Origin: Chloroflexota bacterium
Lineage (GTDB): Bacteria > Chloroflexota > Dehalococcoidia > JACQUD01
Direction of reading: 5' to 3'
Assembly (NCBI GenBank): GCA_016210485.1
Contig: JACQUD010000059.1
Coordinates: 20,800-84,799 of the forward strand
Length of the DNA: 64,000 nt
Below, piece by piece: positions 11,982 to 55,043 of the stretch. The notes under the pieces were generated by a model. It was not told the DNA's origin. It was given only the letters and a program-made list of their open reading frames with translations, and made no database searches. The position numbers and the translations under genes were made by a program. Position 1 is the stretch's first letter. Each line of letters begins with the position of its first letter.

Positions 11982-12506
11982 TTAATCATTCGGCCTCTCC
12001 CGCACGATGGCCGCCTCATAGACCAGGGGGTTGCACCGGCGATAGTCTATCTCCCCTTTGTGGTTCAGCACCGACTCCTCGGCGTGGACCGCTACCACCT
12101 CGGCGATGAAGAGCAGGTGGGAGCGCAGGTCGATAGTGTGAGTGAGGCGGCACTCGATGTTGATGGGGCAGGCGGCCACCAGGGGGGCCTTCACTTTGGC
12201 TGCCGGGGATAGGGCCAGGCCGGTCCGAGCCACCTTATCAGTGTCCCGGCCGGTGGTCGTCCCTATCAGGTGGATGGCGCTGAGCAGGGCCGGCGTGGGC
12301 AAATTTACGGTGAACTCCCCGCCCTCCTGGATGAGGCCCATCGAGTAGCGGCCCCGGCGCAGGGACATGGCGACCTGGGGCGGCTCGGCAGCTACGGAGG
12401 CGATGCGGTTGACAGCCAGGAGGTTGGGCTTCTCCAGGGTGCCGCAGACTACGATGACCAGGGGCACCGGATAGAGCACTGTGTTGGGTTCCAGAAGCCT
12501 TTTCAA
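11982..12506 (-). CDS. Flavin reductase-like domain protein (NADH:FMN oxidoreductase family)
   Basis: 174 aa, [11 protein letters not shown]... flavin-reductase fold. TTG start with strong RBS ggaggggtgaggtga. Only 8 nt upstream of carB. Confidence 0.75.
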
Positions 12507-12654
12507 ATCACCTCACCCCTCCGAAAGCTTTCAGCTTTGCGGAGTCCGATGAGTGCGACGTCATCGGACCTCGGTCCCCCTCTCCTGGAAAGAGAGGGGG
12601 AGGAGAAAAAGCTGGGGACACCCCCAGGCCCCCGACTGAGAAGTTCCCGTCCTC

Positions 12655-13521
12655 TTACTTCTCTCTGCAATAGATTTCCCCTGTCTTCGAAGCAAGCGAA
12701 ACCCTGTCAAGCAGCAGCTCTTCAAGACTGTGTCTTCCCTCCAGTACCAACACGATGTCTTGACCATCCAAGAGTATGATTTTTTGTTCCTTGCCCTCTT
12801 TCAGCGCTTCAACTGCACCCGTGGAATAGCCATTAACCGAAATAAAGAACCCACTTGCGATATGGAACTTTCCTTCGACTTTACCTCGAAACTCATACAA
12901 TGGAGCCGTCGAAACAGGCTTGTCTGTCCAAGTAGCCTCAACCAAGAAGATGTTACTACCAAGCCAGAAGCTGCCATCGATCTGTTCACCCCTCGTATTG
13001 AAAGGCGCGCCCATCTTCAGCCCAAACGCACTCCAAAGCTCCTGCAAGAAATCCTGGAAGCGATAGCCTCGCTTCTGATGATCAGATTCCGCGATAATGC
13101 TTCTAAATGAATCATTCAGTTGAGCAAATTGGGCGGCCGTCTCTACTGCCTTGTCTTTGTCACTAGCCTTACCTGGCTGTCCCTTGCTTTCTGTCACCTT
13201 CTCCCGCACCAGCACATCCAAATTGGTAGCTACGCGACTGCTCTCATTCAGCCATTTATGCATTGCAACCACGCAACGTGTGTTTCCCGTGTTTACGAGG
13301 TCTCGCAACACTCCGTCGACCACAGCGCGCTTGGAAGGTCCATAAACCCATGCCAAGCCCTTCTTTTGAGAAACGGGATACCGAGCGATAATATTGGCTG
13401 GGACACCACAATCCCGGAAAAATGTTCTTAATTCACGGTGCGATAGCTGGACAAGCTGTGTGCTCAAAAATTGAATCAGTTGATATTCCTGGTCCGTGAG
13501 CATTCTAGCCTGCTTGTCCAT
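12655..13521 (-). CDS. Restriction-endonuclease-like protein: N-terminal domain of unknown function fused to C-terminal Mrr-cat (PD-(D/E)xK) nuclease domain
   Basis: C-terminal ~150 aa match the Mrr catalytic domain layout (…EQIDGSFWLGSNIFLVEATWTDKP… ILLDGQDIVLVLEG). GC is clearly lower than flanks. Start taken at MDKQ (13521) with RBS ggagagggaagg; the track ORF extends into the carA-derived repeat. Confidence 0.65.
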   Translation of the reverse strand: MDKQARMLTDQEYQLIQFLSTQLVQLSHRELRTFFRDCGVPANIIARYPVSQKKGLAWVYGPSKRAVVDGVLRDLVNTGNTRCVVAMHKWLNESSRVATNLDVLVREKVTESKGQPGKASDKDKAVETAAQFAQLNDSFRSIIAESDHQKRGYRFQDFLQELWSAFGLKMGAPFNTRGEQIDGSFWLGSNIFLVEATWTDKPVSTAPLYEFRGKVEGKFHIASGFFISVNGYSTGAVEALKEGKEQKIILLDGQDIVLVLEGRHSLEELLLDRVSLASKTGEIYCREK

Positions 13522-13532
13522 GACCTTCCCTC

Positions 13533-13585
13533 TCCACAAACCTCTGGAGCACATACACATTGTCCAGGGGGCCAGGGGAGGCCTC
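13533..13585. repeat. Direct repeat copy 1 (degenerate duplicate of the carA 3' end), left boundary of the VapBC cassette
   Basis: ctccacaaacctctggagcacatacacattgtccagggggccaggggaggcctc versus 14251..14303, about 4 mismatches in 53 bp. Confidence 0.75.
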
Positions 13586-13598
13586 CATCCGCTCCATG

Positions 13599-13988
13599 TC
13601 AGGCACTCTCCGCCCCGTGCAGCTTCACGCCCGGGATAGTCTGGAAGTGGCGATCCAAGGCAAATATGGTGCCGTCATTCTCTATGGCCAGGGCAGCCAC
13701 CAGCAGGTCTGTGAGCGGTATCAGGCGACCCCGGTTGCGTAGATGAAAAGCCATCTCCCCAGCCCTGGCCCAGGTATCCTGAGTTGCCTCCATATAGGGT
13801 AAGGCCCGCAGCACGCCCTCCAGCCGCAACCTTTCTCCCTCAGTGCGCGCACCTTGGAGCACCTCCGCCAGAACCACCCCCACCATTGAAACCTCCCCTT
13901 GCCTCAAAAGGTTGCCCACCGCCTGGCCCTCTGGCGAATCCGGCGATCTGAGAAAAGGGACCCAGGCTGAGGTGTCGACGATTACCAC
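13599..13988 (-). CDS. vapC: PIN-domain ribonuclease toxin VapC
   Basis: MVIVDTSAWVPFL... PIN acidic residues. Overlaps the upstream antitoxin by 7 nt. Confidence 0.85.
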   Translation of the reverse strand: MVIVDTSAWVPFLRSPDSPEGQAVGNLLRQGEVSMVGVVLAEVLQGARTEGERLRLEGVLRALPYMEATQDTWARAGEMAFHLRNRGRLIPLTDLLVAALAIENDGTIFALDRHFQTIPGVKLHGAESA

Positions 13989-14194
13989 TGCATCTCCTTG
14001 AGCTCCAACTCCTCCAGCTCTCTCCAGTTATCCACCAGGTCAACCTTGCCGGCCATACTGAAGAGCTCGTCGATCTTTTTGTTACGGAGATACTCCTCCA
14101 GAGCCTTGTTCACCGCCTTGCTCTTGCTCTTCTCCTTGGTGAGCTTGGTAACCTCTTCAACGAGCCTCTCATCCAACTCCAGAGTTGTGCGCAT
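13982..14194 (-). CDS. vapB: Type II antitoxin VapB (Rv0623/COG4423-like)
   Basis: MRTTLELDERLVEEVTKLTKEKSKSKAVNKALEEYLR... typical antitoxin N-terminus, 70 aa, coupled to vapC. Confidence 0.8.
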   Translation of the reverse strand: MRTTLELDERLVEEVTKLTKEKSKSKAVNKALEEYLRNKKIDELFSMAGKVDLVDNWRELEELELKEMQW

Positions 14195-14225: not shown

Positions 14226-15314
14226 TTATACATCATTCTTGCGCACCATATCCACAAACCTCTCGAACACATACACGTTGTCCAGGGGGCCAGGGGAGGC
14301 CTCGGAGTGGTACTGGATGGCGAGGATGGGCAACTCCCGGTGCCTCAGGCCCTCCACGGTGCCGTCGTTGAGGTTGATGTGGCTCACCTCTACCTGGGGG
14401 GGCAGGCTATCGCCGTCCACGGCGTAGCCGTGATTCTGAGCGGTGATGTAGACCCGGCCCGTCTGGAGGTCTTTGACGGGGTGATTTCCCCCCCGGTGGC
14501 CGAACTTGAGCTTGAAGGTCCGACCGCCGAAGGCCCTCCCCAGCATCTGATGCCCCAGGCATATCCCCAGGATAGGCACCTTCCCGATGAGGCCCTTCAC
14601 CGTCTGCTCCATGTAGCCCAGGAGGGCGGGGTCGCCGGGGCCGGGGGAGAGCACCACCCCTCTCGGCTCCAGGGCCAGGACATCCTCCGCCGAGGCCGTG
14701 GCCGGGACCACGGTGATGGCACAGCCCAGGCCCGACAGGAGGCGCAGGATGTTGAGCTTGAGGCCGCAATCGATAGCCACGATGTGCGGGCCATCGGGCG
14801 GCCCCTCCCAGCGATATAGCGAAAGAGTGGTCACTTGAGGAACGAAGTCTATGAAGTCGTAGCGAGGGACGACTTTGAGGCGCTCCAGGGCCTGCGCCGG
14901 CGACTCGTCCGAGGTGATGGTGCCCATCATGACGCCTTTGGTGCGTAGCTTGCGAGTAAGAGCACGGGTGTCCACACCACAGATGCCAGGGATGCCCTGG
15001 GACTTCAGGTAGTCGTCCAGCGTCCCCTGGCTCTGCCAGTGGCTGGGGATGAGGCAGGCCTCCCGCACCACCAGCCCCGCCGCCTGGATGTGCCGCGACT
15101 CTACAGCCTGATCGTTGATGCCGTAGTTGCCGATGAGGGGATAGGTGAGGGTCAGGATCTGTCCCCGGTACGAGGGGTCGGTGAGCATCTCCTGGTAGCC
15201 GGTCATGGAGGTGTTGAAGACGACCTCTCCCTGGGCCCGGCCCGCGGCGCCGAGGGAAAGCCCCTCGAAGACCGAGCCGTCCTCCAGGACAAGGAGGGCG
15301 CTAATGGGTGTCAT
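14226..15314 (-). CDS. carA: Carbamoyl-phosphate synthase small (glutamine amidotransferase) subunit
   Basis: MTPISALLVLEDGSVFEG... GATase triad region LGICLGHQ. Confidence 0.95.
   Translation of the reverse strand: MTPISALLVLEDGSVFEGLSLGAAGRAQGEVVFNTSMTGYQEMLTDPSYRGQILTLTYPLIGNYGINDQAVESRHIQAAGLVVREACLIPSHWQSQGTLDDYLKSQGIPGICGVDTRALTRKLRTKGVMMGTITSDESPAQALERLKVVPRYDFIDFVPQVTTLSLYRWEGPPDGPHIVAIDCGLKLNILRLLSGLGCAITVVPATASAEDVLALEPRGVVLSPGPGDPALLGYMEQTVKGLIGKVPILGICLGHQMLGRAFGGRTFKLKFGHRGGNHPVKDLQTGRVYITAQNHGYAVDGDSLPPQVEVSHINLNDGTVEGLRHRELPILAIQYHSEASPGPLDNVYVFERFVDMVRKNDV
14251..14303. repeat. Direct repeat copy 2 (inside the authentic 3' end of carA)
   Basis: atccacaaacctctcgaacacatacacgttgtccagggggccaggggaggcctc. 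Encodes the carA C-terminus …PLDNVYVFERFV. Confidence 0.75.
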
Positions 15315-15810
15315 GTTCGCCCCTGAGACGCACCAATCCTAACTCCGTTGCCCGTTGCTTGACCATCTTGTCTGCCTCAATAAAGTGATCCCATATCCTT
15401 ATTAACTCTGCCCTGCCGCTGGCATATAGCGAGGCAGCGTTTGTGAGGCCGATAAAGGGCGAAACTCCAGGCAGCCCATCCTCAAGAAAGAGAGCATTGT
15501 GGTCATACCAGTCCCTTGCTTCCTCGGCGAGTCGCTTTAAATCTACATTTTCTGCTGAGTCCGGCTGCTGCGGGTTAGCACGGCTAATAGCAACGTTGAG
15601 CTTCATTAACCAGGCGTAGGCTTGTTGCACACCAGTCAGTCGCTTCTCGAATAAGGTTCGTTTGTACCACTCCTGGTAGTCGTCACGCCGTTCAGTGGCC
15701 CTTTGCTGCTGGTCAGCCTTTCTGGCGCGGTCATTGAACCAAAGATTGATCAACGAGCCCAGCAATACTATGAAGCCACCGATCAAGGCGCCTTGTGCTG
15801 TCTCGTTCAT
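15301..15810 (-). CDS. Hypothetical single-pass membrane protein (169 aa) inserted between pyrC and carA
   Basis: Start MNETAQGALIGGFIVLLGSLINLWF (TM helix) at ATG 15810..15808, forming an ATGA overlap with the pyrC stop. 3' end overlaps the carA start by 14 nt. Lower GC than flanks. No recognisable domain. Confidence 0.55.
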   Translation of the reverse strand: MNETAQGALIGGFIVLLGSLINLWFNDRARKADQQQRATERRDDYQEWYKRTLFEKRLTGVQQAYAWLMKLNVAISRANPQQPDSAENVDLKRLAEEARDWYDHNALFLEDGLPGVSPFIGLTNAASLYASGRAELIRIWDHFIEADKMVKQRATELGLVRLRGEHDTH

Positions 15811-17141: not shown

Positions 17142-18770
<1,629 letters not shown>

Positions 18771-18799
18771 AAAAGGTTGCCTATTGACTTGTTGACCTA

Positions 18800-40153: not shown

Positions 40154-41668
40154 CTAGCTGTCGTTTCTTTTCTCAAAGTTTCGCAGGGTTTTATCCAGTT
40201 TATCTGAAGAAACATCCTCTTCTTCTGCATCAGCAGATTCTTTGGGTACGAACGAATCGCTGGAAACGCGCCGCAATCCGGGGTTAAGTTGCGTAGCAAA
40301 CGTAAGGCTACCGGACGATACAACTTTGCGGTATTTCCCAAGCTCACCTGTAATTACTGTAAGATGAACAGGCTTGCCTGTCTCCTTGAATTTTCTCTCC
40401 ACAATCTCAGCCACGGCATCGAACAAAGGTATTGACGGATGCTCATAACCCCATTCTGTTAGGGCAAATTTGCCTTTGACACCAATCCAAACCATGCCGT
40501 GCTGCTCGCGGCTCAGCACAGCGTGAATGTTACGTTCGGAGGACGGGTCATCCGGAAACATTGAATTGTAAACTAAGGAAATCTCTGAATAGTGCGCTGG
40601 TCTCCCGATGTGTCGAAGTACGGTATATACTTTTTGGGCCTTAGTTACGCGACTCCATACGGGTTGAGTTGCACTCTCAGCAAGAGTCTTAACGTCATTG
40701 GCCAGAAGGCACAGATTGCCTTTGGAATCTAAAAACTTCGCTATTGACTCTGGGTCAACTTCGTGCGGGTGCCATTCCCAAGGTCCGAGTTCCTGGACAT
40801 CCTTTGACGAAGCCCCTAAGATCACGATTTTTAGCTCGGGTAGCTCCGCAATGGGAATGCCCGCGCATTTGGCGGCGAATCTCCTGAGAGATGCCTGCAA
40901 AGAATCAGTGACGACAACAAGACTACCCTCTGCGCGCATAACATCACATAAGAATGCGCGGAGAAACACCCTGCGATTGTAACGCTGTATGAACCTTTTT
41001 CGCGCCTTATCCTCTAATTGGCGAACTCTCTCTCTGGTAACTCCAAGCCAACTACCAATCTCTTCAAGAGTCATTCTTCTCTCTACGCCGAAGCCTTCTC
41101 TAGCTAGCACAACTTGAACAAGTCTCCGTTCGAGTTTGGAAAGCGCTTCTCCGAGTGCTTCCTCTAACGGCTGGTTCAAGGCAGTAGCACGTACTTCAAT
41201 GTCTGCCAAGCTTTTCAGCAACTTGGTGGCATCTTCAAGGGCGAACAGTGATAAGTAGGAGAGAATATGTGCCAAGGGAAAGCAGTATTGGGCGGGTGTC
41301 CAAGCAGGGCCTACAAATCCGAAGCGCTCCCCAAAGTGCAAAGCCTCCTTCGAGAAAAATTCCCAACGACCAGTGGGGCGCAGGGAATTCATGAGACGCG
41401 TTAACTCACGTTCCGTCAGCCTTGCTTTGTGCGCCTGTGCCATTCTAATGTTCAGGCTGACAAACCACAGAAAGAGAGTTTTCTCTGGGACGAACCAATC
41501 CTCCTTCTCTCGACACAACGAAATATACCGAGAATCGTTAGCGAGAGCGCGTCGCACTGTCTCAGTGTCGATGTCTGATTGTGTGTAGTCAACAACTTCC
41601 GAAACGCTCAAGGCGTACGGCCGTGATGCGAAGGTTTCCAGAGTCTGAGCAATATGCTGCGTATCCAT
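40154..41668 (-). CDS. Sigma-70 region-4 HTH protein with C-terminal HARE-HTH-like winged helix (504 aa); island-1 component
   Basis: Central RRMTLEEIGSWLGVTRERVRQLEDKARKRF is a classic sigma-70 r4 HTH. C-terminal …KVYTVLRHIGRPAHYSEISLVYNSMFPDD…MVWIGVKGKFALTEWGY fits the HARE-HTH pattern. Low GC (~45-50%). Confidence 0.65.
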   Translation of the reverse strand: MDTQHIAQTLETFASRPYALSVSEVVDYTQSDIDTETVRRALANDSRYISLCREKEDWFVPEKTLFLWFVSLNIRMAQAHKARLTERELTRLMNSLRPTGRWEFFSKEALHFGERFGFVGPAWTPAQYCFPLAHILSYLSLFALEDATKLLKSLADIEVRATALNQPLEEALGEALSKLERRLVQVVLAREGFGVERRMTLEEIGSWLGVTRERVRQLEDKARKRFIQRYNRRVFLRAFLCDVMRAEGSLVVVTDSLQASLRRFAAKCAGIPIAELPELKIVILGASSKDVQELGPWEWHPHEVDPESIAKFLDSKGNLCLLANDVKTLAESATQPVWSRVTKAQKVYTVLRHIGRPAHYSEISLVYNSMFPDDPSSERNIHAVLSREQHGMVWIGVKGKFALTEWGYEHPSIPLFDAVAEIVERKFKETGKPVHLTVITGELGKYRKVVSSGSLTFATQLNPGLRRVSSDSFVPKESADAEEEDVSSDKLDKTLRNFEKRNDS

Positions 41669-41681
41669 AGTAGCAGATCGG

Positions 41682-42164
41682 TTAGACGGGAAAATCGCCC
41701 TTCAAGAGCCTTTCAGCAACCTTGCGCGTCCCCTTTTCGCAACGCCCCCAGTTTAATGAGGAGGGGATGAGTTCTTCTTTTACTAAATAGCGACGCAAGA
41801 TAACCACCTTCTCGAGCCATTTTCGCTTTACACCCAGGTCTCGAACTAGATGGTCGTAAAACCCGTCTATCTGAAGTGATATATGTTCTAGGTTGTCTCT
41901 TAGCCCAAACATAGTATCTCCGAGCTGCCAGATCTTTCTGGCAGGCGTAGGCGTATGATTCTTCCTAAACGCCTGTATCTCCGCTAACAACAGACGCATT
42001 GTTCTAATAGAGCGCGAATACGAATCAGCAGCGTTTTGCAAAACAGAACTTGGATCACTTTCCATTGAGATGATCCCATCAATAGAGAGAAACGCCATGA
42101 ATACTCCATCTCTAGGTTCAAAACACACAAAGGTCAGCTTGGGCGAGGTCACCTTTTCCCCCAA
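41682..42164 (-). CDS. Small partner protein (160 aa) of GHKL ATPase copy 1; paralog of 54573..55043
   Basis: Overlaps the GHKL gene by 16 nt. Alignable to the copy-2 partner (…IWQLGDTMFGLRDNLEH…LVRDLGVKRKWLEKVVILRRYL… vs …IYWLAGDEILSFLRRMDDLG…LARDVGVHESLLKRVISFRRRF…). Possible C-terminal HTH. Confidence 0.6.
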   Translation of the reverse strand: MGEKVTSPKLTFVCFEPRDGVFMAFLSIDGIISMESDPSSVLQNAADSYSRSIRTMRLLLAEIQAFRKNHTPTPARKIWQLGDTMFGLRDNLEHISLQIDGFYDHLVRDLGVKRKWLEKVVILRRYLVKEELIPSSLNWGRCEKGTRKVAERLLKGDFPV

Positions 42165-43675
42165 GCAGCCATCATTTTATCTAGGAACATAAGGTCTTGG
42201 GCCTCGCCCTCGCCAGCTAAGAATCTCTGGATGGCACTTCCTATGGCAAAAAGACTGTGGAGCCTTCTTGCTGTGCTATCGGTTCGAGCTTTCACATAGG
42301 ACGGATGCCCACTATTGATAACTACGCTATTGCCGTCCACCCAGGCTAAGTCCACTCTGGTAGGAGCTTCGGCGAAGGCGATTTTGGGACCTCGGCGTCC
42401 TGTTCGGCTGATGGGGGCAGCCGTCTCGTTTCCCTTCTCTTGATTTTGAACAAGCGCTTCGCCAGGCTCATTTCCTACATCGACAGGACTTGGGCCGTCT
42501 CCTCCGTTGCCTTCCCCGATGGGGAAAGTCTCCTCGGTCCCTTCTTGGATATCGGCTTTGATTGGGCCGCTATCGTTAGCTTGGAGAACGTCCTTCTTGG
42601 CGCGAAACCCAAAGAAATCTGCTAGCTCCGGAACATCTTTCACGAGCTTCTTAAGCTCCCGTTCTAGCTTCTCCGCTTCATCCGTACCTCCAATATCCAA
42701 AGACTGGATGCCCAGTGCTGCTAGCCAATTCTTGAACTCCACTCGAACAGGGTTATATAGACTTTCGAATTCTCTATGTTTCCCACGGCCACGGATAAAG
42801 TCCGTCTTAGCCGTGGTCAAGAAGTTAACAAATTTGGGAATCTCCACCAATCCGAAGATCCTCGGCCCAAGACTTCCCGGAAATTGATTAAAGAGGTCTG
42901 CTTTAATGACCTTGCCATAGGTGCACAGCAAAACACCACAAACATCTCCCCCGGCCGGGTACTCGGACGCAGCCAGGCCGAGAACGCCATAGCCTATCCT
43001 TTTGCCAACTCTAGTAGGGAAGAATTTCTTAACCATATCGAGGCTGAAGTCCCTCTCTATGTTACTAGGTATGACGGCCTGTCCGTTGACAGTGAATCTG
43101 AGATCGCTGGGGTAGTAGCCCATGCTCTTGTACAAGTCTAGGAACTGCATATCCAGAAGGGGAAGGTAGTGGTGGCGCAATAGTTTGATTAAGTCCTCAG
43201 ATGAAGAATACGAGACTCTTGTTTCTGCCCCAAATCTCACTTCTACCCTCGTGCCAGTTCCTGATAGATGCGTAGGTTGGATATCCTCCCATAACAGTTT
43301 TCTCTTCGACTCCAAATGCCAATTAGAACCACTAGAAAACATTTCACTGCGGGTCTCAGTGATCACCCTGTCCGAAATATTGAAGCTAATCTTTGCACCA
43401 ACACCGGCAAAGCCTATGCCTGTTCCTCGGGTCTTAAGACCAGCGGCGAAATCGTGGTACTCCTTGAACTGCGAATCGGTCATACCCTTGCCGTTATCGG
43501 CTACAACAAGGACTCTGTGATCAGTGTCATAAGAGATAGAAATACGTGATGCTCTAGCATCCAGAGCATTAGCCACGAGTTCCACAAACACTATCTCAGC
43601 TACTTCAAACGGGTACATTTCGGCTAAATCCCGAATCAGATTTTGGAAGTTCACGCTACTTTCGTGTGTACCCAT
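42149..43675 (-). CDS. GHKL (Bergerat-fold) ATPase of the MORC/MutL/Hsp90 class, copy 1 (508 aa)
   Basis: Motif I ELVANALDA, G1 DNGKGM, G2 GTGIGFAGVGAK, MutL/Hsp90-like GTGTRVEV. C-terminal acidic/Gly linker then …VVINSGHPSYVKA…. Start at internal ATG 43675 (RBS gagga), consistent with promoter TTGACT-18-TATACT at 43741..43770; the track ORF extended upstream. Confidence 0.75.
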   Translation of the reverse strand: MGTHESSVNFQNLIRDLAEMYPFEVAEIVFVELVANALDARASRISISYDTDHRVLVVADNGKGMTDSQFKEYHDFAAGLKTRGTGIGFAGVGAKISFNISDRVITETRSEMFSSGSNWHLESKRKLLWEDIQPTHLSGTGTRVEVRFGAETRVSYSSSEDLIKLLRHHYLPLLDMQFLDLYKSMGYYPSDLRFTVNGQAVIPSNIERDFSLDMVKKFFPTRVGKRIGYGVLGLAASEYPAGGDVCGVLLCTYGKVIKADLFNQFPGSLGPRIFGLVEIPKFVNFLTTAKTDFIRGRGKHREFESLYNPVRVEFKNWLAALGIQSLDIGGTDEAEKLERELKKLVKDVPELADFFGFRAKKDVLQANDSGPIKADIQEGTEETFPIGEGNGGDGPSPVDVGNEPGEALVQNQEKGNETAAPISRTGRRGPKIAFAEAPTRVDLAWVDGNSVVINSGHPSYVKARTDSTARRLHSLFAIGSAIQRFLAGEGEAQDLMFLDKMMAAWGKR

Positions 43676-43740
43676 GTTATCCTCGTTTAGATAATTCAAA
43701 ATATGACAATTTAAACCGTCGGACACCCGCTCCCGGGGCC

Positions 43741-43770
43741 AGTATAAGCCCGCCCCGAAAGCAGAGTCAA
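43741..43770 (-). promoter_or_regulatory. Candidate promoter of GHKL module 1 (TTGACT - 18 nt - TATACT, minus strand)
   Basis: Hexamers read on the minus strand about 65 nt upstream of the GHKL ATG. Confidence 0.4.
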
Positions 43771-43836
43771 TTGTTTGCGATGAGGGTTGGAATGGGATAT
43801 ATCCCAAAATGCCCTGACGGGCGCAAAATGGGGAGA

Positions 43837-52963: not shown

Positions 52964-53052
52964 CTTTTTTGTAAGTAATCAAGGGTATTTTGGAGCTTAT
53001 AGAGATAAGCTTAAGGGCATTGCCCATAGAGGTAGTTGAGTGTAGGTGTCTT

Positions 53053-54585
53053 ATGGGTGAAACTCGGGTAAACCTGAAGCATCTTCTGGAGAACTTAAGG
53101 GACTCATATCCATTGCCTTTAGAAGAGGCCATCGTTACCGAGTTAGTAGCTAATGCCCTTGATTCCAAAGCTTCGAGGATTGGCTTTACTGTAGATTCAG
53201 GTGAGTGCTCATTGTCAATTGTGGATAATGGCGCGGGGATGAAACGCGAAGAGTTCGAGAAGTATCACGATATTGCTGAGACCACTAAGGAAAAAGGACG
53301 AGGGATAGGATTTGCCGGCCAGGGTGCCAAGTTGTCTTTGTTGGCAGTAAGGTCGGTGCAGACGGAAACGAAGACAAGTGAGGGGTCCTTTTCCACTGCG
53401 TGGCATCTTGAAGATGACTATCATGCCCCTTGGGATTTTATTCCTCCTTTGGGCCTTGTTGGTACACAGACAGGGACAGCAATCAAAGTTCTTCTGAGAG
53501 AAAAACAAAGCGATCTGGCAAATTCGACTTTCGTGATTAGGACTATTCAGAAATGGTTTGCTTCCCTCTTAGAAAAGGATTTCATGCCCAAAGCCCTTAG
53601 AGAAGTGTACCCAAGCGGAGTCTTTTTCGGCGTAAATGGGAGGATGGTGGAGCTATCCCAAAGTTCGGTGTTTCATGACTTTGCCACTGGCTATAAGCTC
53701 AGGCCTTTTGAAGTGCGACTTAAAAGGAAGCAGGTAGGAATTGGATTCCTTGGAAGAAGTATCCGCTCTTTGAAAGAGGAGGAAAGGGGCCTGGCGATAT
53801 CTGTGTTGGGTAAGGTCGTAAAGCGGGGTTGGGAGTGGGTGGATGTTTCTCCGAAAGACCGCAAGTTCATATGGGGCATGGTTGAAGTCCCCGCTCTCTC
53901 CACAATTCTTGCGACAAACAAATGCGACTTCTTGTCCGACGTGTCGAGCAAGACAAAGTATTACCAGTATCGCAAGGCTATTGTTGTGGCCATACAGCCC
54001 ATCCTACGTGCCATGGGCGAGTTGCCTGAGGCTGAGCCTGAAGCGCTACCGCAAGCGTTGGCAAAAGAAATCCGAATGGTCCTTGAGGAACTTCTGCCCG
54101 ATTTCCCTGAGCTGGAACCACTTTTGGATAAGCAGGGACGAGGGGAAAAGGTTAGCACGGTTCTGCCCGACCCTGCTGCCGATCCGGCAGGGGGCGTGGA
54201 GCAAGGGGTGGCTAGTGTAACTGGAGACCAGGGAGGGGTTGGGCAAGGAGCGGGAGTTGATGTTGGGCCAGGCACGGGGCCTGGTGAAAGGATTTCCCCA
54301 GAAGCTCCGCTTACAGAACCAGGTAGGCAGCATGAGGGAAGGCGCAGGCTTCCTGGGCTTATGATCCGCTATGAAGACAAACTAGAGGAAGAACTAGGGC
54401 GATTGGAAGGAATTACCATATTCATAAATAAGGGGCATCCTGCTTACAGAAAAGTTGCCGACTCAAAAAGCCTGGAGAATTACCATACTTTTCTAACGAT
54501 AGCTTGGGTGTTGTCAAAAAACCTTGCTGATGGAAGGTCTCCCCAGGGATTCATAAATCAGTTCCTTAGGATTTGGGGGGGTTAA
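53053..54585 (+). CDS. GHKL (Bergerat-fold) ATPase of the MORC/MutL/Hsp90 class, copy 2 (paralog of 42149..43675)
   Basis: ELVANALDS, DNGAGM, GRGIGFAGQGAK, GTAIKV. Gly/Pro/acidic linker then …ITIFINKGHPAYRKV…. Collinear with copy 1 over the full length at roughly 25-30% identity by eye. Alternative TTG start at 52990. Confidence 0.75.
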   Translation: MGETRVNLKHLLENLRDSYPLPLEEAIVTELVANALDSKASRIGFTVDSGECSLSIVDNGAGMKREEFEKYHDIAETTKEKGRGIGFAGQGAKLSLLAVRSVQTETKTSEGSFSTAWHLEDDYHAPWDFIPPLGLVGTQTGTAIKVLLREKQSDLANSTFVIRTIQKWFASLLEKDFMPKALREVYPSGVFFGVNGRMVELSQSSVFHDFATGYKLRPFEVRLKRKQVGIGFLGRSIRSLKEEERGLAISVLGKVVKRGWEWVDVSPKDRKFIWGMVEVPALSTILATNKCDFLSDVSSKTKYYQYRKAIVVAIQPILRAMGELPEAEPEALPQALAKEIRMVLEELLPDFPELEPLLDKQGRGEKVSTVLPDPAADPAGGVEQGVASVTGDQGGVGQGAGVDVGPGTGPGERISPEAPLTEPGRQHEGRRRLPGLMIRYEDKLEEELGRLEGITIFINKGHPAYRKVADSKSLENYHTFLTIAWVLSKNLADGRSPQGFINQFLRIWGG

Positions 54586-55043
54586 TCATGGGGGATAAGT
54601 TTCCGCTCATCGTATCGCCAGAAAAAGATTCCAAGGGTGAGTTCAAGGTTGCAACCTCTTTTCAAACTCTGCTGGACGCATCTCGAAGCGTGCGCAAGGA
54701 CTTAGAATATGTTGAACAAGACTATGCGCTTTTGATAAGTAACCTTCGCTGTTTGCTCATTAGAAGTGGCACGAGTGGAAGGCGAGACCCGCGTATTTAC
54801 TGGCTTGCCGGAGATGAAATATTAAGCTTCCTTCGACGTATGGATGATTTGGGCTTTTTTCTACATCAACAGAATAAAACGCTGGCAAGAGATGTGGGAG
54901 TACATGAAAGCTTGCTCAAAAGGGTTATCTCATTTCGCAGGCGCTTTCCGCTTCTTTCTCAGGTTGACCCTTCTATCTTGTGGACTAGATACAGGAGCAA
55001 TGCAGTCCCGCTACCCGGGAGCGAAAAAGATCAAGGTGTTTAG
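54573..55043 (+). CDS. Small partner protein (156 aa) of GHKL ATPase copy 2; paralog of 41682..42164
   Basis: Overlaps the GHKL gene by 13 nt. Alignable to the copy-1 partner. Ends at the recO start. Confidence 0.6.
   Translation: MGGLIMGDKFPLIVSPEKDSKGEFKVATSFQTLLDASRSVRKDLEYVEQDYALLISNLRCLLIRSGTSGRRDPRIYWLAGDEILSFLRRMDDLGFFLHQQNKTLARDVGVHESLLKRVISFRRRFPLLSQVDPSILWTRYRSNAVPLPGSEKDQGV

What the first reader, a model, noticed from the sequence alone, without database searches (positions are those of the whole stretch)
12655..13521. Low-GC Mrr-cat restriction-endonuclease-like fusion protein next to VapBC
The C-terminal ~150 aa fit the Mrr catalytic (PD-(D/E)xK) domain, including the characteristic C-terminal I-L-L-D-G-x-D-I segment. 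The N-terminal ~140 aa have no obvious homolog and may be a sensing or modified-DNA-recognition domain. GC is visibly lower than the neighbours. This is a solitary type IV-like restriction enzyme or a nuclease effector, adjacent to a TA module: a small defence islet inside the pyr operon.
Basis: partly seen in the sequence, partly recalled or inferred. Interest (0 to 1): 0.55.

Follow-up and report, generated by a model that had tools for sequence, protein, structure and literature searches.

The report
Mrr-like nuclease gene inside pyr operon
The gene is real and encodes a two-domain protein with an Mrr-type nuclease fold, but this copy lacks the catalytic lysine, and its closest relatives sit in the same place, between the two carbamoyl-phosphate synthetase genes, in five other related genomes.

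Summary
The ORF at 12655-13521 (- strand, 288 aa) is real. It has a good ribosome-binding site and is annotated only as hypothetical in a Chloroflexi MAG. Its C-terminal half passes Pfam Mrr_cat (32 bits, cut-off 21). A family profile aligns it to EcoKMrr: D182=D203, E195=Q219, T197=K221. So the motif III lysine is threonine here. Among 177 relatives that position is K 149, R 25, Q 2, T 1. The equivalent K94A mutant of LlaGI has no nuclease activity.

The N-terminal ~100 aa match no Pfam family. They are nonetheless a conserved domain with an invariant Lys64 (hhalign 97% to N-termini of other family members).

The family has about 2,000 50%-identity clusters and is uncharacterised. Its nuclease module is also fused to retron RT, OLD-TOPRIM, TIR and LRR-Roc-COR. 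Members sit inside type I R-M operons and on 17 viral contigs.

All five closest full-length relatives lie beside carA or carB, often with overlapping start and stop codons. Each has much lower GC3 than its flanks. VapBC is shared with a relative that lacks the gene.

Verdict: a defence-type Mrr-like nuclease family member, probably catalytically impaired here. It is a long-term passenger of a variable carA-carB slot, not a type IV enzyme.

The parts
12655..13521 (-). Gene X: 288-aa two-domain protein (stop codon 12655-12657)
   Evidence: ORF list; RBS GGAGAGGGAAGG before the ATG; identical to NCBI MAG protein HY676_04560
13222..13521 (-). N-terminal helical domain (aa 1-~100) with a beta-hairpin and invariant Lys64 ('GPSKR')
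   Evidence: AF2 pLDDT 72-88 over aa 11-100; no Pfam hit; K64 invariant in A3; hhalign 97.1%, E 6e-11, to N-termini of other family members
13087..13221 (-). Linker: end of a long helix, a low-confidence loop (aa 100-115) and a second long helix (aa 121-143)
   Evidence: AF2 secondary structure and pLDDT
12658..13086 (-). Mrr-type PD-(D/E)xK nuclease domain (aa 146-288)
   Evidence: Pfam Mrr_cat 32 bits, GA 21; alpha-beta-beta-beta-alpha-beta order in the AF2 model, pLDDT >90; best Foldseek hits MspJI and AspBHI; family profile aligns to EcoKMrr 202-287
12976..12978 (-). Codon GAT = Asp182, motif II catalytic Asp (EcoKMrr D203)
   Evidence: Invariant in 177/177 relatives; alignment to EcoKMrr
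12931..12939 (-). Codons GAG GCT ACT = Glu195-Ala196-Thr197: motif III with Thr in place of the catalytic Lys (EcoKMrr Q219-A-K221)
   Evidence: Sequence; K 149, R 25, Q 2, T 1 among 177 relatives (175 matched by regex); LlaGI K94A has no nuclease activity (PMC2790908)
13528..13585 (-). 58-nt remnant copy of the carA 3' end, directly upstream of X's RBS
   Evidence: Direct repeat with 14246-14303, 53/58 identical. It is closer to the window's own carA than to carA of four related genomes, which match 39-44/58
13599..13988 (-). vapC (PIN toxin), 129 aa
   Evidence: Pfam PIN 46 bits; NCBIfam VapC equivalog 83.1 bits, cut-off 80
13982..14194 (-). vapB antitoxin, 70 aa, overlaps vapC by 7 nt
   Evidence: Pfam VapB_antitoxin 46 bits; syntenic ortholog in L003, 64% aa identity
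14226..15314 (-). carA, upstream flank of the variable slot
   Evidence: ORF and translation; 65-68% aa identity to carA of L003 and L073
12507..12654 (-). Structured 148-nt spacer after X, including a terminator-like hairpin at 12612-12633 followed by a U-run
   Evidence: Terminator scan, not above shuffle expectation; RNA fold z = -2.3
11982..12506 (-). Flavin reductase-like gene between X and carB, with host-like GC
   Evidence: Pfam Flavin_Reduct 99 bits; 82% aa ortholog in L003
8695..11973 (-). carB, downstream flank of the slot
   Evidence: ORF; 74-79% aa identity to carB of L003, L073, L077 and L078
18679..18779 (-). PyrR binding site (attenuator) in the operon leader
   Evidence: Rfam RF00515, 57.3 bits, gathering 54

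Best explanation
Gene X encodes a member of a large, uncharacterised family of ~300-aa proteins. They consist of a conserved N-terminal helical domain (invariant Lys64), two long linker helices, and a C-terminal Mrr-clade PD-(D/E)xK nuclease domain. Across the family the nuclease module behaves like an immune effector: it is swapped onto retron RT, OLD-TOPRIM, TIR and LRR-Roc-COR proteins and sits in type I R-M operons and on viral contigs. By inference, the N-domain senses or recognises a target and the linker helices mediate oligomerisation, as in EcoKMrr or MspJI. The nuclease would then cut nucleic acid with one Asp (motif II), one Glu and one Lys (motif III). In this Chloroflexi lineage one clade of the family is a long-term occupant of the gap between carA and carB. 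It is positioned to be co-transcribed with the PyrR-controlled pyr operon, and in four relatives its start or stop codon abuts or overlaps carA or carB. The slot is variable and is remodelled by recombination anchored on the conserved flanks. The window's copy carries Thr at the catalytic Lys and Gln at motif I. It is therefore most likely inactive or strongly attenuated as a nuclease: either a decaying passenger or a binding-only remnant. Shown here: the fold family, the motif states, the family architectures, the synteny and the composition. Inferred: the defence role, the roles of the N-domain and linker, loss of activity, and co-transcription.
For: Fold and family: Pfam Mrr_cat is above the gathering score. 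The AF2 core has pLDDT >90 with the expected strand and helix order. The best Foldseek PDB hits are MspJI, AspBHI, Cdn1, Cap4 and AF1548. A profile of 177 relatives aligns to EcoKMrr (26.8 bits) with D182=D203, E195=Q219 and T197=K221.

Motif states: motif III is K 149, R 25, Q 2, T 1, with T only in the window; D182 is 177/177; E195 is 176/177. LlaGI D78A and K94A mutants are completely inactive (PMC2790908).

Family size: 1,994 representatives at E<=1e-3.

Defence-type architectures: retron RT (PADLOC RT-Protease_XI/RT-TIR_XII models, E 1e-131), OLD-like TOPRIM, TIR_2 and LRR-Roc-COR. Members lie in hsdM-hsdS-hsdR operons in 3 of 25 unrelated loci examined. There are 17 IMG/VR contigs with members.

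N-domain: conserved across the family (hhalign 97.1%).

Synteny: P0030 follows carA directly (TAA then ATG). P0031 has a carA TGA overlapping the X ATG. P0032 lies in carA-vapB-[vapC remnant]-X-carB. P0071 and P0033 overlap the carB start.

Divergence and composition: X is 30-44% identical between these genomes, against 74-79% for carB. GC3 of X is 0.36-0.68 against 0.75-0.94 for its flanks in all six genomes.

Variable slot: L003 has carA-vapBC-[two low-GC TM ORFs]-flavin reductase-carB and no trace of X. The window carries a 58-nt carA 3' scar next to X.

Regulation: a PyrR site lies in the operon leader.
Against: No member of this family has been tested, so the defence role rests on domain fusions and neighbourhoods. 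The PADLOC hit is weak (PDC-S02, E 1.4e-4). Foldseek E-values to solved Mrr-like nucleases are only 1e-3 to 1e-1, and no solved structure matches by sequence. Defence genes are not usually syntenic across genomes this divergent. Persistently low GC3 at a fixed position is not what simple vertical descent predicts. Some PD-(D/E)xK enzymes tolerate a non-Lys residue at this position (Asp or Glu in some type II enzymes, PMC2790908), and 25 relatives carry Arg, so loss of activity is not proven. Thr197 comes from a single MAG contig and could be an assembly or population variant. A terminator-like hairpin after X leaves the transcription pattern uncertain.
Confidence: 0.5

Rival explanations
1. 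One reading: an active, solitary type IV (modification-dependent) restriction enzyme. Its N-terminal domain reads modified DNA, and together with VapBC it forms a recently inserted defence islet.
For: Mrr_cat membership by HMM. The best structural neighbours are the type IV enzymes MspJI and AspBHI. The layout, an N-terminal non-catalytic domain followed by a C-terminal Mrr nuclease, resembles EcoKMrr. The gene has low GC.
Against: The catalytic Lys is Thr and motif I Glu is Gln. The N-domain has no similarity to Mrr_N or SRA readers and gives no significant fold hit. VapBC is conserved with L003, which lacks X, so the two did not arrive together. X relatives hold the same slot in five other genomes.
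Confidence: 0.08
2. A free-standing homing-endonuclease-like selfish gene. The clade recognises the conserved carA/carB junction of X-less genomes, cuts it, and is copied in by repair from the conserved flanks. After fixation the nuclease decays, and the window's copy is at that stage.
For: The same slot between two highly conserved essential genes is occupied in six genomes, with abutting or overlapping start and stop codons. X has foreign-looking GC3 in every host. X is absent from a related genome. The catalytic motif is eroding within the clade: EAK x3, EAR, AAR, EAT. A recent carA 3' recombination scar abuts X. N-domain type appears to go with location, on a limited sample. From general knowledge, PD-(D/E)xK is one of the known homing-endonuclease folds.
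Against: No target site has been identified and no cleavage data exist. The wider family sits in R-M operons and immune-type fusions, not in homing contexts. The roughly equal pairwise distances of X between genomes fit vertical descent with fast evolution. The sample is small.
Confidence: 0.12
3. A domesticated, non-catalytic nucleic-acid-binding or regulatory protein kept in the pyr operon for a role linked to pyrimidine or carbamoyl-phosphate metabolism.
For: The position between carA and carB is conserved, with overlaps that suggest translational coupling. The operon is under a PyrR attenuator. All six clade members have Gln at motif I, and three of six lack the canonical EAK.
Against: Three of six keep a full D/E/K set. 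X is missing in L003, where the operon is otherwise intact. Low GC3 and 30-44% identity point to an accessory gene rather than a housekeeping partner. Gln at motif I also occurs in 29/177 relatives outside this context.
Confidence: 0.1
4. The third gene of the VapBC module: a second toxin or effector held in check by VapB.
For: The order vapB-vapC-X is seen in the window. L073 keeps an intact vapB-like gene and X, while its vapC is reduced to a 28-codon remnant.
Against: L071 and L076 have X directly after carA with no vapB. L003 has vapBC without X. The window and L073 VapB proteins are only 29% identical. A 58-nt carA remnant separates vapC from X in the window.
Confidence: 0.06

Closest known systems
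EcoKMrr (E. coli type IV restriction enzyme; Pfam Mrr_cat PF04471)
   Same: C-terminal nuclease domain of the same Pfam family. The family profile aligns to Mrr 202-287, with motif II IDG and motif III (Q/E)-A-K-W in register, followed by a 'GxFIS/T...S' strand and 'L(V/L)DG'. Both have a non-catalytic N-terminal domain before the nuclease.
   Different: The N-domain is unrelated to Mrr_N (no Pfam hit). Motif II is GEQIDG rather than DGGIDG. The window copy has Thr in place of K221 and Gln in place of E172. There is no evidence of modification dependence.
MspJI / AspBHI (modification-dependent REases, PDB 4f0p, 4oc8)
   Same: Best structural matches to the AF2 model; the Mrr-like catalytic core is C-terminal.
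   Different: The matches are weak (E 1.6e-3 to 4.7e-3, TM 0.3). Their N-terminal SRA-like reader has no counterpart here.
Mrr-like REase effector modules of NTP-dependent conflict systems, retrons and STAND/Avs-type proteins (Kaur et al. 2020, PMC7159879)
   Same: The same nuclease subfamily is found fused to retron-type RT, TIR, OLD-TOPRIM and LRR-Roc-COR. This is the modular effector behaviour described for Mrr-like REases.
   Different: The window protein is stand-alone. It has no NTPase or sensor partner nearby, and its N-domain is not one of the Pfam effector-associated domains.
PADLOC candidate PDC-S02
   Same: A single-gene candidate of ~330 aa whose model aligns to linker plus nuclease (aa 114-259 against model positions 161-305 of 334).
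   Different: Only 19 bits, E 1.4e-4, and only 2 of 22 family members match. PDC-S02 has no established function; the papers listed were not opened.
Free-standing homing endonucleases of phages (intronless homing; from general knowledge)
   Same: A nuclease gene wedged between conserved essential genes, patchy presence, foreign composition, decaying active sites.
   Different: No target site or mobility has been shown. The gene is chromosomal and bacterial. Its family is otherwise tied to defence contexts.

Membership tests
Pfam Mrr_cat / Mrr-clade PD-(D/E)xK nuclease | Profile HMM score above the curated gathering threshold | tested here: met
   32.1 bits against 21, aa 152-257; 20 of 22 relatives also match
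Pfam Mrr_cat / Mrr-clade PD-(D/E)xK nuclease | alpha-beta-beta-beta-alpha-beta restriction-endonuclease core fold | tested here: met
   AF2: H148-165, E170-177, E180-187, E190-197, H205-217, E221-228, pLDDT >90. Best PDB hits are Mrr-like nucleases, but with weak E-values. This is a prediction, not a solved structure.
Pfam Mrr_cat / Mrr-clade PD-(D/E)xK nuclease | Motif II catalytic Asp (EcoKMrr D203, LlaGI D78) | tested here: met
   D182, invariant in 177/177 relatives
Pfam Mrr_cat / Mrr-clade PD-(D/E)xK nuclease | Motif III (Q/E)-x-K with the catalytic Lys (EcoKMrr K221, LlaGI K94) | tested here: not met
   E195 is present but K is T197. Relatives: K 149, R 25, Q 2, T 1. LlaGI K94A is inactive.
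Pfam Mrr_cat / Mrr-clade PD-(D/E)xK nuclease | Motif I Glu on the first helix (EcoKMrr E172, LlaGI E38) | tested here: not met
   Q156. Relatives: E 146, Q 29 of 177. LlaGI E38A keeps partial activity.
Type IV modification-dependent restriction enzyme | A recognised modified-DNA reader domain (Mrr_N winged helix, SRA-like, etc.) | tested here: not met
   No Pfam hit for the N-domain at E<=10. Foldseek against PDB and BFVD gave nothing below E=1.
Type IV modification-dependent restriction enzyme | Cleavage that depends on DNA modification | not testable with these tools
   Needs biochemistry or in vivo restriction assays
Type II toxin-antitoxin VapBC (the neighbours, not X) | Adjacent antitoxin and PIN toxin genes, both matching curated models | tested here: met
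   VapB_antitoxin 46.3 bits; PIN 46.2 bits; NCBIfam VapC equivalog 83.1 bits, cut-off 80; the genes overlap by 7 nt
Type II toxin-antitoxin VapBC (X as a module member) | Consistent co-occurrence of X with vapB/vapC | tested here: not met
   X occurs without vapB in L071 and L076, and vapBC occurs without X in L003
PADLOC PDC-S02 candidate system | Significant full-length match to the PADLOC model | tested here: inconclusive
   19 bits, E 1.4e-4, partial
Free-standing homing endonuclease | Insertion between conserved genes, with patchy presence among relatives | tested here: met
   Six genomes carry X beside carA or carB, and L003 lacks it. The sample is small.
Free-standing homing endonuclease | Cleavage of the gene-less allele and copying by repair | not testable with these tools
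   Needs cleavage and co-conversion assays

The most novel reading that the evidence does not exclude
The clade to which this gene belongs is a chromosomal, free-standing homing-type nuclease, or more generally a selfish nuclease. It maintains itself specifically in the carA-carB junction of Chloroflexi pyr operons, re-invading through the conserved flanks and decaying after fixation. A milder variant of the same idea: the embedding is functional, and puts the effector's dose under PyrR control, that is, under the pyrimidine pool.
Probability: 0.12. Interest if true: 0.75.

Novelty: new variant of a known kind. Interest (0 to 1): 0.45.

Why it matters
Mrr-like nucleases are well known, so the fold itself is ordinary. 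Two things are not.

First, the gene belongs to a sizeable family (about 2,000 50%-identity clusters). The family has a conserved, unannotated N-terminal domain and no tested member. Its nuclease module recurs in retron, TOPRIM, TIR and ROCO architectures and in type I R-M operons. That makes it a reasonable candidate for a new single-gene defence family.

Second, one clade sits in the same slot inside an essential, PyrR-regulated biosynthetic operon in six genomes whose carB proteins are only about 75% identical. In every one the gene looks compositionally foreign. That combination is unusual for a defence gene. It raises a testable question: is the position kept by descent, by site-directed re-invasion, or for regulatory reasons?

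For this particular copy, the practical message is caution. It lacks the catalytic lysine and should not be annotated as an active restriction enzyme.

Tried and rejected
- Sequence search of PDB with the full-length family profile (A1) found nothing at E<=1. The nuclease-domain profile (A5) gave only E~0.7 hits: MJ1640 and Cdn1.
- Foldseek with the N-domain model against PDB and BFVD found nothing below E=1. The best PDB hit was the CENP-N pyrin-like domain (E 1.0, TM 0.51). I treat this as a lead towards a Death-like or adaptor fold, not as evidence.
- Pfam scans of ten N-domains at E<=10 gave no consistent family, so an effector-associated-domain (EAD) assignment recalled from memory could not be supported.
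- A word-seeded search with the N-domain profile returned only fragments of one subclade.
- NCBIfam and PHROGs gave no hit for X.
- A metagenome scan with the clade alignment returned 7 loci, none linked to carA or carB; all were C-terminal-only relatives.
- Exact-sequence lookup of X found no further contig.
- I first read the 58-nt repeat as a sign that vapBC was a recent insertion. I rejected this because vapB and vapC are syntenic in L003 at core-gene-like divergence, and L073 retains a vapC remnant. How the scar arose remains unresolved.
- The alternative 301-aa start at 13560 was rejected. It lies inside the carA remnant, and the NCBI model and the RBS favour 13521.
- Possible compensation of T197 by Lys201 was rejected, because a basic residue 2-4 positions after the Trp is common in relatives that also keep the Lys.
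Full report

Yes. An ORF runs from 13521 to 12655 on the minus strand. The ATG at 13521 is preceded by GGAGAGGGAAGG. The 288-aa product is identical to a protein that NCBI annotates only as 'hypothetical protein HY676_04560' in a Chloroflexi MAG. A longer 301-aa reading from 13560 starts inside a remnant of carA and has no support.

GC is 0.487 (GC3 0.52). For carA, vapC, the flavin reductase gene and carB it is 0.62-0.65 (GC3 0.70-0.85). This places the gene among roughly the lowest 5% of 600-bp windows in the 64 kb, although several other low-GC patches exist.

The vapB/vapC pair matches VapB_antitoxin at 46 bits and the NCBIfam VapC equivalog at 83 bits against a cut-off of 80. It lies within pyrR-pyrB-pyrC-carA-...-carB. 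A PyrR binding site (RF00515, 57 bits, gathering 54) sits in the operon leader at 18679-18779.

**2. Anatomy of the protein**

Pfam Mrr_cat matches aa 152-257 at 32 bits against a gathering score of 21. An AlphaFold2 model built from 22 aligned relatives has mean pLDDT 83.8. The C-terminal domain is above 90 and has the expected order of elements: helix 148-165, strands 170-177, 180-187 and 190-197, helix 205-217, strand 221-228.

Foldseek against PDB puts MspJI and AspBHI first, followed by Cdn1, Cap4 and AF1548. All have Mrr-like or related PD-(D/E)xK cores, but the E-values are only 1e-3 to 1e-1. No solved structure matches by sequence.

I fetched E. coli K-12 mrr and aligned it to an HMM built from the nuclease domains of 177 relatives. 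The alignment (26.8 bits) puts IDG on Mrr I202-D203-G204 and 'EAKW' on Mrr Q219-A-K221-R-W. Smith et al. define these as Mrr motifs II and III. They show that LlaGI D78A and K94A are completely inactive and that E38A (motif I) and Q92A are partly active (PMC2790908).

**3. The catalytic residues**

In the window protein D182 and E195 are present, but the motif III lysine is threonine (codon ACT, 12931-12933). Across the 177 relatives this position is K 149, R 25, Q 2 and T 1, and the single T is the window protein. D182 is 177/177 and E195 is 176/177.

Motif I Glu is Gln156. That is a common variant (29/177) and is shared by the whole subclade. A basic residue a few positions after the Trp (Lys201) is also common in relatives that keep the Lys, so it is not a specific compensation.

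That criterion is partly met: the fold assignment stands, and catalytic competence of this copy is doubtful. I cannot exclude residual activity, or an assembly variant in a single MAG contig.

**4. The N-terminal half**

No Pfam, NCBIfam, PHROG or PADLOC family covers aa 1-100. It is not an orphan, however. The ten closest full-length relatives share it, with the pattern H-x-E-L...GVP...GPSK(K/R)xVV and an invariant Lys64. A profile of it aligns to the N-termini of other family members, taken from metagenomic and IMG/VR loci, at hhalign probability 97.1%, E 6e-11.

**5. The family**

An exhaustive HMMER search finds 1,994 50%-identity representatives at E<=1e-3 and 994 at E<=1e-10. Most are ~300-aa proteins with the same layout. 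The nuclease module also appears in other architectures:

- N-terminal to OLD-like TOPRIM domains;
- C-terminal to a retron-type RT (best PADLOC models RT-Protease_XI and RT-TIR_XII);
- C-terminal to a TIR_2 domain;
- C-terminal to an LRR-Roc-COR GTPase.

In 3 of the 25 unrelated loci examined, the family member lies inside a type I R-M operon: hsdM-hsdS-hsdR-X, hsdM-hsdS-X-hsdR, and hsdR-X...hsdM. Seventeen IMG/VR contigs carry members.

This is the behaviour of an immune effector module, as described for Mrr-like REases in conflict systems (PMC7159879). No member appears to have been tested. The only PADLOC link is a weak match to the candidate PDC-S02.

**6. The surprise: where the closest relatives sit**

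All five closest full-length relatives lie beside carA or carB.

| Relative | Locus | Arrangement |
|---|---|---|
| P0030 | L071 | X starts immediately after the carA stop (TAA then ATG) |
| P0031 | L076, GCA_016210705.1 | X ATG overlaps the carA TGA |
| P0032 | L073 | pyrR-pyrB-pyrC-carA-vapB-like-[28-codon vapC remnant]-X-carB |
| P0071 | L077 | X overlaps the carB start |
| P0033 | L078, GCA_026389775.1 | X overlaps the carB start |

More distant full-length relatives are elsewhere. P0035 follows mutS, and P0027 and P0108 lie in other contexts.

Between these genomes carB is 74-79% identical, carA 65-70% and X 30-44%. In all six, X has far lower GC3 (0.36-0.68) than its carA or carB flank (0.75-0.94).

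A seventh genome, L003 (Chloroflexi MAG JACQUO01; flavin reductase 82% identical), has carA-vapB-vapC-[two small low-GC membrane ORFs]-flavin reductase-carB. It shows no trace of X.

Three conclusions follow. VapBC and X did not arrive together. VapBC predates the split of the window and L003 lineages. The interval between carA and carB is a long-lived variable slot in which X is the commonest occupant.

**7. A recombination scar**

Directly upstream of X's RBS lies a 58-nt copy of the carA 3' end (13528-13585 against 14246-14303, 53/58 identical). It reads EASPGPLDNVYVLQRFVER..., and its frame would terminate 20 nt into X. That recalls the carA|X junctions of L071 and L076.

The copy is much closer to the window's own carA than to carA of four related genomes, which match 39-44/58. 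The event is therefore recent and local.

It shows that the slot is remodelled by recombination using carA as an anchor. The exact history remains open. One possibility is that vapBC-bearing DNA recombined into a carA|X ancestor. Another is that a carA-3'+X fragment was inserted after vapC.

**8. How it most likely works**

Best explanation (confidence about 0.5): X is a member of a defence-type family in which an N-terminal domain controls or targets a C-terminal Mrr-clade nuclease, probably as an oligomer. In this lineage it rides in the pyr operon. It is positioned to be transcribed from the PyrR-controlled promoter, and its relatives have codon overlaps with carA or carB that suggest translational coupling. 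The window's copy has lost the motif III lysine and is probably inactive or attenuated.

Shown here: fold family, motif states, architectures, synteny, composition and the scar. Inferred: the defence function, the role of the N-domain, oligomerisation, loss of activity and co-transcription.

Rivals:

- An active type IV enzyme (0.08). There is no reader domain and no catalytic Lys.
- A homing-type selfish nuclease specific for the carA-carB junction (0.12). This fits the fixed slot, the foreign composition, the patchy presence, the decaying motifs and the scar, but no target or mobility is shown.
- A domesticated pyr-linked binding protein (0.10).
- A third component of VapBC (0.06). The co-occurrence is inconsistent.

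**9. Comparison, novelty and scores**

By HMM and predicted fold the protein is a member of Mrr_cat. It fails the motif III lysine test, so it should not be filed as an active Mrr-type endonuclease. It is not demonstrably a type IV enzyme.

The family, meaning the conserved N-domain plus this Mrr subclade, is undescribed as far as these libraries and the literature searches show. The conserved embedding between carA and carB is, to my knowledge, unreported.

I rate it a new variant of a known kind, with interest 0.45. The fold is ordinary and this copy is probably dead. The conserved operon position and the uncharacterised family are worth following up.

Noticed in passing
window 13528-13585 and 14246-14303: A 58-nt direct repeat. 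The carA 3' end is duplicated (53/58 identical) just upstream of gene X. The copy is closer to the window's own carA than to orthologues, so it marks a recent recombination event.
   Followed up: yes
window 15301-15750 (- strand): A 149-aa low-GC (0.52) ORF with an N-terminal hydrophobic helix, wedged between pyrC and carA. It is absent in L003 (61-bp spacer) and in L073 (pyrC and carA overlap). It has no Pfam, PADLOC or PHROG hit. This is a second lineage-specific insertion in the pyr operon.
   Followed up: partly
window 12507-12654 (- strand): The 148-nt spacer after gene X folds into three hairpins (z = -2.3). The first, at 12612-12633, is followed by a U-run and looks like a terminator inside the operon. 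There is no Rfam match.
   Followed up: partly
window 18679-18779 (- strand): PyrR binding site (RF00515, 57.3 bits, gathering 54) in the leader upstream of pyrR. The operon that carries the nuclease gene is therefore probably under pyrimidine-dependent attenuation.
   Followed up: partly
L003 7317-7976: In the related MAG, the slot held by gene X is occupied by two small predicted membrane ORFs (106 and 110 aa) with GC 0.46-0.49, against 0.70 for the flanks. They have no PHROG hit and no similarity to the window.
   Followed up: partly
L073 7905-7988: A 28-codon remnant of the vapC 3' end follows an intact vapB-like gene: a decayed toxin beside a surviving antitoxin, upstream of the X homologue P0032.
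   Followed up: partly
window 41682-43807 (- strand) and 52990-55043 (+ strand): Two low-GC patches each hold a ~530-550-aa GHKL ATPase (HATPase_c_3). The two are paralogous (28% identity, E 5e-50). Each is followed by an overlapping ~156-160-aa ORF with no Pfam hit. One ATPase has a weak PADLOC TmtA hit. A 504-aa sigma70_r4 protein (40154-41668) with a weak MzaA hit lies next to the first. These may be further defence-type modules.
   Followed up: partly
L081 3-5588, L097 1932-8767, L103 1741-10378: Relatives of gene X lie inside or beside type I R-M operons (hsdM, hsdS and hsdR confirmed by Pfam). This parallels mrr lying next to hsdR in E. coli K-12 (L079).
   Followed up: yes
window 11982-12506 (- strand): A flavin reductase-like gene with host-like GC sits between gene X and carB. 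It is shared with L003 (82% aa identity) but absent from L073, L077 and L078, where X abuts carB. This is another variable occupant of the carA-carB gap.
   Followed up: partly
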